This document shows, piece after piece, positions 43,763 to 43,902 of a stretch of 64,000 bases of DNA. The notes under the pieces are model-generated. The model ran no database searches. It was not told the origin of the DNA and saw only the letters and a list, made by a program, of their open reading frames with translations. Numbering within the stretch: position 1 is the first letter of the stretch; each line of letters begins with the position of its first letter. Source of the stretch: a phage; assembly GCA_012490745.1 (NCBI GenBank), contig GCA_012490745.1_3925.1. The stretch is one strand, 5' to 3'. A program made the position numbers and the translations under genes.

Positions 43763-43902
43763 TTATCTTTGTAGATAAGTTATTAAGCTTACCTGTGAGT
43801 ATGCGACCACAAAGGGTGAAAGGGTAAATTCTAGATTTAAACCCAAAAAGGCACATCGCTACAGACCTTAAGCAAGTCTGGGTAGCTTATCTACAAAGAT
43901 AA
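43763..43902 (+). repeat. 140-nt element bounded by 17-bp perfect inverted repeats
   Basis: TTATCTTTGTAGATAAG (43763-43779) and its exact reverse complement CTTATCTACAAAGATAA (43886-43902). Confidence 0.6.

What the first reader, a model, noticed from the sequence alone, without database searches (positions are those of the whole stretch)
43763..43902. 140-nt segment bounded by 17-bp perfect inverted repeats, directly upstream of tRNA-Lys
TTATCTTTGTAGATAAG and its exact reverse complement flank about 105 nt with no ORF or tRNA. Perfect terminal inverted repeats of this length suggest a long-stem RNA or a miniature inverted-repeat mobile element.
Basis: seen in the sequence. Interest (0 to 1): 0.45.

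Follow-up and report, generated by a model that had tools for sequence, protein, structure and literature searches.

The report
Conserved long-stem RNA before phage tRNA-Lys
The inverted repeat is real, but it is not a mobile element: it is the closing stem of a conserved, about 145-nt structured non-coding RNA that sits just before tRNA-Lys in the tRNA operon of a Felix-O1-like phage, beside a Ro60-like protein gene and a set of Y-RNA-like modules that no database or paper I could search describes.

Summary
The repeat is 19 bp perfect and 24 bp with G·U pairs (43761-43784 / 43881-43904). It is the longest perfect inverted repeat in the window (about 1e-4 expected) and ends 4 nt before tRNA-Lys(UUU).

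The window is a Felixounavirus tRNA cluster. The element ("E3") occurs once per genome in about 196 phage records, always at this position. A 21-30 bp closing stem is kept in six lineages while the arm sequences change. On a three-lineage alignment, 13 of 32 pairs show compensatory changes and 97% of cells pair, against 28-47% in register-shifted controls. The wobble pairs are G·U on the + strand only. An inner hairpin keeps a near-invariant 9-nt loop, C(U/C)U(U/A)(A/U)GCAA, on covarying stems.

There is no target duplication, no second copy and no copy in 5,426 E. coli genomes, so the MITE reading is rejected.

E3 lies 1.1 kb downstream of a protein I show to have the Ro60 fold (Bas63 gp130). 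It directly follows four Y-RNA-like modules, one with a permuted tRNA-like (YrlA-type) domain.

Best reading: a structured RNA module of this tRNA/Y-RNA operon, released by tRNA-processing enzymes, probably linked to the Ro60-like particle and/or to tRNA-Lys maturation. No transcript or binding data exist.

The parts
43761..43904 (+). E3: the whole structured RNA module, made of closing stem P1 and a multi-branch interior (P2, P3, P4)
   Evidence: RNA fold z = -5.3. Covariance model R1 scores 144.9 bits on + against 31.7 bits on -. Homologs in lineages A, B, C, P778, L117 and L118 all abut tRNA-Lys(UUU).
43761..43784 (+).
   Evidence: On alignment A6, 9 of the 23 P1 pairs change on both sides.
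43881..43904 (+).
   Evidence: It holds three G·U pairs readable only on the + strand.
43789..43819 (+). P2: variable inner hairpin, whose sequence is replaced between type A and type B phages
43822..43844 (+). P3: hairpin with a conserved apex, AUUCUAGAUU. The palindrome is UCUAGA in types A and B and ACUAGU in lineage C.
   Evidence: The flanking positions covary (helix 2).
43862..43880 (+). P4: 5-bp hairpin CAGAC/GUCUG with the 9-nt loop CUUAAGCAA
   Evidence: The stems covary across six lineages: CAGAC/GUCUG, CAAACC/GGUUUG, CAGUC/GACUG, AAAGUC/GACUUU, CUGUUC/GAACGG, GAGAC/GUCUC. The loop is near-invariant.
43905..43908 (+). 4-nt A/U spacer (UAAU) between P1 and tRNA-Lys position +1
   Evidence: It resembles the 1-9 nt A/U spacers between the other tRNAs of the cluster.
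43909..43984 (+). tRNA-Lys(UUU), the invariant downstream neighbour of E3
43625..43762 (+). M4: Y-RNA-like module with a permuted tRNA-like domain (V arm, T arm, closed acceptor-like stem, D arm). Its last 2 nt overlap the first 2 bp of P1.
   Evidence: 97.3% of cells paired and 14 of 32 pairs with double changes. Model R2 scores 136.9 bits.
41203..42618 (+). Ro60-like protein gene (471 aa, Pfam DUF2828 + DUF7788), 1.14 kb upstream on the same strand
   Evidence: Pfam. AlphaFold2 model with pLDDT 85. The top 12 PDB fold matches are all Ro60, with E about 1e-7 and TM up to 0.66. It is the ortholog of Bas63 gp130.
42728..42757 (+). Sigma-70-like promoter (TTGACA, 18 nt, TAAAGT, with TG) that probably drives the unit containing E3
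   Evidence: Consensus match only. No + strand terminator-like site lies between 42660 and 47896. The next strong promoter-like site is at 44158-44186.

Best explanation
The segment is the closing stem and body of a conserved, independently folding non-coding RNA of about 145 nt ('E3'). E3 is encoded on the + strand inside the first transcription unit of a Felixounavirus tRNA cluster. It acts as RNA, not as DNA and not as a mobile element.

Shown here:
- A 21-30 bp closing helix is kept by compensatory change.
- The helix caps a junction with inner hairpins, one of which (P4) carries a near-invariant 9-nt loop ending in GCAA.
- The module always ends 4-6 nt before tRNA-Lys(UUU).
- In this window it starts 2 nt inside the last of four Y-RNA-like modules, which lie downstream of a gene for a protein with the Ro60 fold.

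Inferred:
- E3 is co-transcribed with the tRNAs.
- Its 3' end is set by RNase P cleavage at tRNA-Lys +1, followed by exonuclease trimming back to the stem.
- The long stem either simply protects both ends or is cut by RNase III, as the leader-trailer stems of rRNA operons are. That cut would separate the Y-RNA block from the tRNA block and release the interior.
- The freed RNA presents its conserved loops (P4 and, in lineages A-C, P3) to a partner.

The partner I consider most likely is the phage Ro60-like protein or its particle. That would make E3 a long-stem, YrlB-like companion of the tRNA-like Y RNA next to it. A dedicated role in making or guarding tRNA-Lys(UUU) is the main alternative for the same RNA.
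For: 1. Real and non-random.

2. RNA-level conservation. On the model-guided alignment of 13 sequences from lineages A, B and C, 97.4% of cells pair and 13 of 32 pairs change on both sides. Register-shifted controls give 28-47% paired and 0-3 such pairs. A MAFFT alignment of types A and B gives 98.3% paired. The closing stem is 21-30 bp with 2-4 G·U pairs in all twelve genomes of the six lineages examined, although the arm sequences differ completely in P778, L117 and L118. The model scores 145 bits on + and 32 bits on -.

3. The P4 stem has six different sequences, and its loop is essentially fixed.

4. Fixed position. R1 hits in L119, L115, L116, P778 and L117 all end at tRNA-Lys(UUU). There is one place per record in about 196 records.

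5. E3 persists when neighbours are lost. ESCO49 keeps E3 without M3 and most of M4, and warpig lost M2 to M3.

6. Ro60 context. The upstream protein has the Ro60 fold. Four modules share the closing stem 5'-NNNC-[AGA]-AGACC...GGUCU-[G]-GNNN-3' with covarying outer pairs. M4 is a YrlA-type tRNA mimic. Similar modules flank Ro-like genes in distant phages. The P4 loop ends in AGCAA, as does the CAGCAA motif of those modules. In L117, E3 itself has a module-type closing stem by my reading of the sequence.

7. Kolesnikviruses lack the Ro-like gene at the syntenic site. They give no E3 hit, and a pattern search for the module 5' motif finds none in their tRNA region.

8. Operon context: no + strand terminator-like site lies between the promoter-like sites at 42728 and 44158.
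Against: - No transcript, end-mapping or binding data exist for this region in any paper I could search.
- E3 lacks the Ro-binding motifs described for known Y RNAs (GGUCCGA, GNCGAAN0-1G, CGAA). It also lacks the AGA-bulged closing stem of its neighbour modules.
- The Y-RNA model R2 does not hit E3.
- E3 was not found next to Ro-like genes of distant phages, so its link to Ro is by position and a short shared loop motif only.
- Its strict linkage is to tRNA-Lys(UUU), not to the Ro gene.
- Two other long hairpins of the cluster (44968-45057 and 44351-44385) also end just before a tRNA or tRNA-like gene with a similar 3' flank. This fits a generic leader or processing role at least as well.
- SP116 lives without E3, so it is dispensable in the laboratory.
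Confidence: 0.6

Rival explanations
1. E3 is purely a cis-acting processing or leader element. The 22-24 bp duplex is an RNase III site, or a structural insulator, in the polycistronic precursor. It separates the Y-RNA-like block from the tRNA-Lys/Met/Ile run and gives tRNA-Lys a short, defined 5' leader for RNase P. The excised piece has no function of its own.
For: - Stem length (21-30 bp, about two helical turns) is conserved while the sequence is not.
- Two other long hairpins end just before a tRNA or tRNA-like gene that follows a non-tRNA stretch. H2 (44968-45057) precedes tRNA-Leu and H0 (44351-44385) precedes an odd tRNA-like gene. They have similar bases (UCUUU.../...AAAGA) and similar 3' flanks (AAAGAU(AA)UUUAAUG).
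- H2 also covaries in relatives.
- In lineage C the H2 stem has nearly the sequence of the window's E3 stem, so the stems are interchangeable.
- tRNA-Ser is itself enclosed by a 13-14 bp leader-trailer stem, both here and in P778.
- From my own knowledge, not checked here: RNase III cuts the leader-trailer stems of rRNA operons and acts on the T4 tRNA precursor.
Against: - The interior is not free to drift. The P4 loop is near-invariant across lineages whose Ro-like proteins are only 53-64% identical to the window's, and the P3 apex is conserved in lineages A-C.
- A simple cleavage site needs no 100-nt structured insert.
- Most tRNAs of the cluster have no such hairpin.
Confidence: 0.25
2. E3 is a miniature inverted-repeat transposable element (MITE), or the remnant of an insertion into the tRNA cluster.
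For: It has long terminal inverted repeats around a non-coding core of about 100 nt. The interior differs sharply between type A and type B phages.
Against: - Single copy in the window.
- One place per record in about 196 phage records, with three extra places in all that I did not examine. None in 5,426 E. coli genomes.
- Same position in six lineages, with arms changed by compensatory substitution.
- No target-site duplication at the flanks.
- The only loss seen (SP116) has its endpoints in T-loops, not at the repeats.
- No transposase is nearby.
Confidence: 0.02
3. E3 is a DNA-level palindrome: a cruciform, a protein-binding site or a replication or packaging signal, not an RNA.
For: A perfect 19-bp palindromic arm pair could form a cruciform. 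The P3 apex is a 6-nt DNA palindrome (TCTAGA, or ACTAGT in lineage C).
Against: The non-Watson-Crick positions in the stems are G·U on the + strand in all but a few sequences, which would be A·C mismatches on the other strand. The covariance model scores far higher on the + strand. The element lies inside a dense, same-strand array of RNA genes.
Confidence: 0.03
4. E3 is a small protein-coding gene (as some GenBank records annotate), an intrinsic terminator, a retron-type ncRNA or a self-cleaving ribozyme.
For: ORFs overlap it, and hypothetical proteins are annotated there in Felix O1 and Bas63. Retron ncRNAs also have flanking inverted repeats. Phage tRNA genes can be flanked by ribozymes (bioRxiv 10.1101/2023.06.13.544163).
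Against: - The ORFs are not conserved in relatives.
- No U-tract follows the stem, and no + strand terminator-like site was called there.
- There is no reverse transcriptase nearby. The next ORFs are DUF7338, DUF7217 and terminase.
- No Rfam family, ribozyme or otherwise, matches even at E <= 10.
- The theta ribozymes of that preprint process 3' trailers downstream of tRNAs, which is the opposite side.
Confidence: 0.03

Closest known systems
Bacterial and phage Y RNAs bound by Ro60 orthologs: Salmonella YrlA and YrlB, D. radiodurans Yrn1, Thermus phage phiLo Yrl1 and Yrl2
   Same: E3 is encoded within 4 kb of a Ro60-fold protein on the same strand, which is the criterion of Chen et al. 2014 (PMC4201824). 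Its 5' and 3' parts pair into a long stem that closes a large structured interior. It sits beside a tRNA-mimicking module of YrlA architecture, as YrlB sits beside YrlA. Phage Ro60 proteins are known to bind phage-encoded Y-like RNAs (PMC12135203).
   Different: E3 has no GGUCCGA, GNCGAA or CGAA motif, no tRNA-like domain and no bulged helix. Its stem sequence is free to vary. It is embedded in a tRNA array and tied to tRNA-Lys. The protein belongs to Pfam DUF2828/DUF7788 rather than TROVE. No binding has been shown.
RNase III processing stems of stable-RNA operons: the leader-trailer helices of 16S and 23S rRNA, and the RNase III step in maturation of the phage T4 tRNA cluster, which also yields the stable 'species 1 and 2' RNAs. 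These are recalled from my own knowledge and were not checked here.
   Same: A duplex of two helical turns or more is formed by sequences flanking an RNA inside a polycistronic stable-RNA transcript. The duplex is conserved in length but not in sequence.
   Different: What the stem encloses is not an rRNA or tRNA but a 100-nt body with its own conserved loops. Cleavage has not been tested.
Miniature inverted-repeat transposable elements (MITEs)
   Same: Terminal inverted repeats of about 20 bp around a short non-coding core.
   Different: E3 is single-copy, fixed in position and has no target duplication. Its arms evolve by compensatory change, and it is absent from host genomes.

Membership tests
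MITE | Terminal inverted repeats | tested here: met
   19 bp perfect, 24 bp with G·U.
MITE | Flanking target-site duplication | tested here: not met
   The flanks are ...GGTCTGGT and TAATGG..., with no direct repeat.
MITE | Multiple dispersed copies in the genome or in related or host genomes | tested here: not met
   Only the two arms match in the window. One record has one place in nearly all of about 196 phage records, 199 places in all; I did not examine the three extra places. No match in 5,426 E. coli genomes.
MITE | Presence/absence polymorphism that ends precisely at the repeats | tested here: not met
   The only E3-less genome found (SP116) carries a deletion running from the T-loop of module M4 to the T-loop of tRNA-Lys.
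Y RNA (Ro60-associated ncRNA) | Encoded near a Ro60 ortholog on the same strand | tested here: met
   The Ro60-fold protein gene is at 41203-42618. E3 starts 1.14 kb downstream on the + strand.
Y RNA (Ro60-associated ncRNA) | 5' and 3' regions pair into a long stem that closes an internal loop or module | tested here: met
   The predicted stem is supported by covariation. The true RNA ends are not mapped.
Y RNA (Ro60-associated ncRNA) | Conserved Ro-binding sequence in the stem (GGUCCGA, GNCGAAN0-1G or CGAA; PMC4201824, PMC12135203) | tested here: not met
   No CGAA occurs in 43761-43904. The stem sequence varies freely between lineages. Only a loop motif ending in AGCAA is shared with the neighbouring modules.
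Y RNA (Ro60-associated ncRNA) | Physical association with the Ro60 protein | not testable with these tools
   Needs immunoprecipitation or a gel-shift assay with gp130.
YrlA subfamily (tRNA-mimic Y RNA) | T arm, D arm and closed acceptor-like stem in permuted order | tested here: not met
   E3 has none, and model R2 does not hit it. The neighbouring module M4 (43625-43762) does meet this feature.
RNase III processing stem | About 20 bp or more of near-continuous double-stranded RNA in a precursor transcript | tested here: met
   24 bp without interruption here, and 21-30 bp in all lineages. It lies between promoter-like sites with no terminator-like site on the + strand.
RNase III processing stem | Cleavage by RNase III in vivo or in vitro | not testable with these tools
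   Needs a comparison of rnc mutant and wild-type hosts, or an assay with the purified enzyme.
Intrinsic terminator | G+C-rich hairpin followed by a U-tract | tested here: not met
   The stem is A/U-rich with a 96-nt interior and is followed by UAAUGG. No terminator-like site was called there.
Retron ncRNA | Adjacent reverse transcriptase gene | tested here: not met
   The neighbours are tRNA genes. The nearest ORFs are Ro60-like, DUF7338, DUF7217 and terminase.
Any Rfam 15 family | Covariance-model match | tested here: not met
   Nothing overlaps 43761-43904 at E <= 1 over 6.5 kb or at E <= 10 over 481 nt.

The most novel reading that the evidence does not exclude
E3 is a new class of phage non-coding RNA that works with the Ro60-like anti-defence protein (Bas63 gp130, reported to counter the Ppl system) or guards tRNA-Lys(UUU). 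tRNA-Lys(UUU) is, from my own knowledge, the tRNA attacked by host anticodon nucleases such as PrrC and the PARIS effector. Under this reading the long duplex tethers or shields the RNA, and the invariant GCAA loop is the recognition element. E3, the four Y-like modules and the Ro60-like protein would then form one RNA-based counter-defence unit embedded in the tRNA array.
Probability: 0.25. Interest if true: 0.75.

Novelty: new variant of a known kind. Interest (0 to 1): 0.5.

Why it matters
Felix-O1-like phages are widely used for typing, biocontrol and therapy. About 250 sequenced genomes in the phage collection carry this region, yet it is unannotated or annotated with spurious small ORFs.

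A 2024 preprint showed that the adjacent Ro60-like protein of Bas63 counters a bacterial defence system. It could only guess that 'some tRNA genes are possibly Y RNAs'. This work places concrete, covariation-supported RNA candidates next to that gene: four modules with a shared bulged closing stem, one of them a permuted tRNA mimic, and the long-stem RNA E3 studied here.

That makes the guess directly testable by immunoprecipitation, deletion and compensatory mutation. It also extends Y-RNA-like biology to a protein family (DUF2828/DUF7788) found in at least 710 phage records.

For E3 itself, its strict coupling to tRNA-Lys(UUU) raises a testable link between RNA structure and expression or protection of a tRNA that host defences target.

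Tried and rejected
- **Rfam.** Scans at permissive thresholds found nothing over E3, on the window or on a lineage-C relative.
- **Mobile element.** Searches of the window, the phage collection and E. coli genomes found no extra copies.
- **Coding.** The overlapping ORFs are not conserved.
- **Terminator or promoter inside the 3' arm.** No U-tract follows the stem. The TTTAAT just before the tRNA would put a transcription start inside the tRNA, and no matching -35 is present.
- **Retron.** No reverse transcriptase is nearby.
- **Ribozyme.** No family match was found, and the known tRNA-associated theta ribozymes act on 3' trailers.
- **Alternative pairing CUAC(43859)/GUAG(43882).** It competes with the top of P1. 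It was rejected because lineage C keeps the P1 pairing (CUGU/ACAG) and loses the alternative.
- **P4 as a mimic of the tRNA-Lys anticodon arm** (CAGAC-CUU... against GCAGA-CUUUUAA in this window). The two stems do not change in parallel in L117 and L118, so I treat the likeness as coincidence.
- **E3 in distant Ro-like-encoding phages.** Model R1 found none in 72 loci, so E3 is confined to the Felix-O1-like group.
- **Literature.** Searches for Felixounavirus ncRNA or transcriptome data and for RNase III in phage tRNA clusters returned nothing usable. The supplements of the two key papers are not held.
- **PADLOC.** It has no model matching the Ro60-like protein.

Full report
**1. The observation.**
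The 17-mer TTATCTTTGTAGATAAG lies at 43763-43779 and its exact reverse complement at 43886-43902. These are the only two matches in the window even with three mismatches allowed. The repeat is longer than reported:
- 19 bp perfect Watson-Crick (43761-43779 / 43886-43904);
- 22 nt at 95% complementarity;
- 24 bp when G·U pairs are counted (43761-43784 / 43881-43904).

It is the longest perfect inverted repeat within 220 nt in the whole 64-kb window. About 1e-4 such repeats are expected from base composition, and the longest in 20 block-shuffles was 14 bp. As RNA the segment folds to -48.3 kcal/mol, z = -5.3, and none of 200 shuffles fold as well. tRNA-Lys(UUU) begins at 43909, four bases after the stem.

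**2. Where we are.**
The window is a Felix-O1-like phage (Felixounavirus). The 460-nt spacer between tRNA-Asp and tRNA-Lys matches 252 phage records, 195 of them at 95% identity or more, and the E3 segment is 100% identical in Felix O1 itself. It lies in a + strand array of 25 tRNA genes. I call the hairpin E3.

**3. E3 is a conserved RNA structure, not a repeat that happens to be there.**
Relatives carry E3 at the same position and with about the same length, but in different sequence versions.
- *Type A* (this window, Felix O1, Bas63) and *type B* (OPT-SAL01 and the Mooglevirus and Suspvirus genera) share the outer stem. Their arms differ, for example UUUGUAGAUAAG/CUUAUCUACAAA against UUUGCAGUGAC/GUUACUGCAAA, and their interiors are largely replaced.
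- A covariance model built from types A and B (R1) then found E3 in more distant phages, identified through their Ro-like protein:
  - lineage C (L115 and L116; protein 62-64% identical): 56 and 52 bits, E about 1e-10;
  - Yersinia phage P778 (about 54%): 29 bits;
  - L117 (56%): 19 bits.
- Every one of these hits ends at the 5' end of tRNA-Lys(UUU).
- L118 (53%) has an E3 by eye at the same place.

On the model-guided alignment of 13 sequences from lineages A-C, 97.4% of cells form standard pairs and 13 of 32 pairs change on both sides. When the 3' partner is slid by 1-3 columns, only 28-47% pair and 0-3 pairs change on both sides. The MAFFT alignment of types A and B alone gives 98.3% paired.

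In all twelve genomes examined, which cover the six lineages, the minimum-free-energy fold gives a closing stem of 21-30 bp with 2-4 G·U pairs. This holds even where no arm sequence is shared with the window (P778: AGUUUUAUUUGAAGUG/CACUUCAAAUAGAAUU). Apart from a few sequences with a single mismatch, the non-Watson-Crick pairs are G·U on the + strand, and R1 scores 145 bits on + against 32 bits on -. So the constraint acts on an RNA read from the tRNA strand.

**4. Anatomy.**
- P1: 43761-43784 / 43881-43904.
- P2: 43789-43819, variable.
- P3: 43822-43844. Its apex AUUCUAGAUU is conserved in types A and B. In lineage C it becomes AUACUAGUAU, so the six-base palindrome is kept (UCUAGA to ACUAGU).
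- P4: 43862-43880, abutting the 3' arm.

P4 is the most informative part. Its stem has six different sequences in six lineages: CAGAC/GUCUG, CAAACC/GGUUUG, CAGUC/GACUG, AAAGUC/GACUUU, CUGUUC/GAACGG and GAGAC/GUCUC. Its 9-nt loop is almost fixed: CUUAAGCAA, CUUUAGCAA, CCUUAGCAA or CCUAUGCAA.

**5. Not a mobile element.**
- There is one copy in the window.
- There is one place per record in about 196 phage records. Three extra places were reported in all, which I did not examine.
- There is no copy in 5,426 complete E. coli genomes.
- The flanks show no target duplication.
- The one genome found without E3 (SP116) carries a deletion that joins the T-loop of the upstream tRNA-like module to the T-loop of tRNA-Lys. 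It removes E3 and the tRNA together.
- ESCO49 keeps E3 while losing the two upstream modules. Warpig lost M2 through M3 by recombination between modules M2 and M4.
- The overlapping ORFs, annotated as hypothetical proteins in Felix O1 and Bas63, are not conserved.

**6. Context that changes the reading.**
The ORF at 41203-42618 (471 aa; Pfam DUF2828 + DUF7788) is annotated 'RNA-binding' or 'Ro-like' in relatives. I modelled it from a 30-sequence alignment (pLDDT 85, pTM 0.85). Its twelve best PDB fold matches are all Ro60 proteins: Xenopus or human Ro60, Thermus phage phiLo Ro60 and Deinococcus Rsr. They align over the full length with E about 1e-7 and TM up to 0.66. The protein is the ortholog of Bas63 gp130. 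A 2024 preprint reports that gp130 counters the Ppl defence system and resembles Ro60, and it speculates that some neighbouring 'tRNA genes' might be Y RNAs (PMC11482910).

Between the tRNAs I found four modules with identical ends:
- M1: 42950-43028
- M2: 43117-43182
- M3: 43533-43616
- M4: 43625-43762

Each is closed by 5'-NNNC-[AGA]-AGACC...GGUCU-[G]-GNNN-3'. The outer four pairs covary between the copies (UGAC/GUCA, UUGC/GCAA, GAGC/GCUC, UUAC/GUAA), and the 5' strand is followed by UU-N-CAGCAA.

M4 holds a permuted tRNA-like domain: a V arm preceded by CUAU, a T arm with GGUUCGAUUCC, a closed acceptor-like stem, then a D arm. This is the YrlA architecture of Chen et al. 2014 (PMC4201824). 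It is supported by 14 of 32 pairs with double changes and 97.3% pairing.

A model of M4 (R2) finds strong hits on the gene strand beside Ro-like genes of phages only 40-48% identical in protein. Examples are L043, L099, L074, L109 and L093, with E from 1e-8 to 1e-15, and they show the same CAGCA(A) motif.

Rfam reported no Y-RNA family match anywhere in this region. The only Rfam signal over the modules is a sub-threshold tRNA match (22 bits) inside M4.

Kolesnikviruses lack the Ro-like gene at the syntenic site. They give no E3 hit, and a pattern search for the module 5' motif finds none in their tRNA region.

**7. How E3 relates to the modules.**
- E3 begins two bases inside M4's outer helix.
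- Its P4 is a minimal helix-plus-AGCAA element.
- In L117, E3 itself has a module-type closing stem by my reading of the sequence (UUGCA-AA-GAAUCU-UU-CAGCA ... UGCUG-CG-AGAUUC-CC-UGCAA).

But E3 lacks the AGA-bulged stem and any known Ro-binding motif, and R2 does not hit it. Its one invariant neighbour is tRNA-Lys(UUU). The upstream neighbour varies: M4 in types A and B, a plain module in lineage C, and other sequence in P778, L117 and L118.

**8. A second theme: leader hairpins.**
Two more long hairpins end just before a tRNA or tRNA-like gene that follows a non-tRNA stretch:
- H2 (44968-45057; 27 bp counting G·U pairs) before tRNA-Leu;
- H0 (44351-44385; 16 bp) before an odd tRNA-like gene.

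They have similar stem bases (UCUUU/AAAGA) and similar 3' flanks (AAAGAU(AA)UUUAAUG). H2 covaries in relatives and keeps an inner loop, UUGUUGCU. In lineage C, H2's stem is almost the window's E3 stem, so the stems are paralogous or exchanged. tRNA-Ser is itself enclosed by a 13-14 bp leader-trailer helix, both here and in P778. This supports a processing role for the long stems.

**9. Mechanism.**
*Shown:* a structured RNA of fixed architecture on the tRNA strand. It lies between promoter-like sites at 42728 and 44158 with no + strand terminator-like site in between.

*Inferred from established tRNA processing:* RNase P cleavage at tRNA-Lys +1 sets E3's 3' side. The 4-nt A/U spacer resembles the other inter-tRNA spacers. 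The duplex of about 24 bp either protects both ends from exonucleases or is an RNase III substrate that excises the interior.

*Inferred from context:* the conserved loops are recognition elements, most likely for the Ro60-like particle. Alternatively they serve maturation or protection of tRNA-Lys(UUU).

My confidence in each step:
- about 0.9 that this is a functional RNA structure and not a mobile or DNA element;
- about 0.4-0.45 that it partners with the Ro60-like protein;
- about 0.25 that it is only a cis-acting processing element.

**10. Comparison and novelty.**
E3 works most like a Y RNA of the YrlB sort, or like an rRNA-type processing stem with cargo. It fails the sequence-motif test for Y-RNA membership, and the binding test cannot be run here. 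It matches no Rfam family, and I found no description in the searchable literature. I rate it a new variant of a known kind. Interest is moderate for E3 alone. It is higher for the whole Ro60-like/Y-RNA-like locus, which is now directly testable.

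Noticed in passing
window 42950-43028, 43117-43182, 43533-43616, 43625-43762: Four paralogous stem-closed RNA modules (M1-M4) lie between the tRNAs. 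All are closed by 5'-NNNC-[AGA]-AGACC...GGUCU-[G]-GNNN-3' with covarying outer pairs, and the 5' strand is followed by UU-N-CAGCAA. They are candidate Y RNAs for the adjacent Ro60-like protein. Rfam does not recognise them as Y RNAs, and they are unannotated in the GenBank records I looked at.
   Followed up: partly
window 43625-43762: M4 contains a circularly permuted tRNA-like domain (V arm, T arm, closed acceptor-like stem, D arm), which is the YrlA architecture. The acceptor-like stem is fully recoded in Mordin, L117 and L118. 14 of 32 pairs show double changes.
   Followed up: yes
L043 5700-5962; L099 1523-2393 (six tandem hits); L109 5401-5640; L074 3841-3946 and 8361-8485; L093 3454-3701: A model of M4 finds strong same-strand hits next to Ro-like (DUF2828) genes of phages only 40-48% identical in protein. 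They share the CAGCA(A) motif. The pairing of protein and module therefore seems widespread.
   Followed up: partly
window 41203-42618: The 471-aa DUF2828/DUF7788 protein has the Ro60 (HEAT-repeat ring plus vWA) fold. Homologs occur in at least 710 phage records, often next to tRNA arrays.
   Followed up: yes
window 44968-45057 and 44351-44385: Two further long hairpins (27 bp and 16 bp, G·U pairs counted) end just before tRNA-Leu(UAG) and an odd tRNA-like gene. Their 3' flanks resemble that of E3. H2 keeps an inner loop UUGUUGCU(U), whose UUGCU(U) is complementary to the (A)AGCAA of the E3 P4 loop and of the module motif. A loop-loop contact is possible but untested.
   Followed up: partly
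window 44698-44711 / 44800-44813; L029 8005-8017 / 8106-8118: tRNA-Ser(UGA) is enclosed by a 13-14 bp leader-trailer helix in this phage and, with a different sequence, in Yersinia phage P778.
   Followed up: no
window 44391-44469 and 44618-44697: Two odd tRNA-like genes that ARAGORN does not call. Rfam gives tRNA at 31.7 bits for the first and a weak tRNA-Sec-like hit for the second. The second has a counterpart in P778 (L029, about 7913-7999).
   Followed up: no
window 44084-44389; L115 6672-6978: Weak, sub-threshold Rfam hits to permuted tmRNA and to tmRNA recur at the same place after tRNA-Ile in two lineages. This may be chance or an unrecognised structured RNA.
   Followed up: no
L120 1700-1735 (SP116); L121 1480-1520 (ESCO49); L122 1495-1520 (warpig): Natural deletions in the cluster have their endpoints in repeated RNA-gene motifs: T-loop to T-loop in SP116, and module 5' end to module 5' end in warpig. 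The repeated RNA modules therefore drive rearrangement of the tRNA region.
   Followed up: yes
L029 6505-6650 and 7647-7760 (Yersinia phage P778): tRNA-like genes whose acceptor halves are separated by insertions of about 70-100 nt. They could be introns or degenerate genes. The first has a conserved counterpart upstream of tRNA-Pro in Kolesnikviruses (L032 3457-3600).
   Followed up: no
window 45816-46373 and 46762-47559: Two protein genes of unknown function (DUF7338 and DUF7217) are embedded in the tRNA array. The large terminase gene starts at 48163.
   Followed up: no
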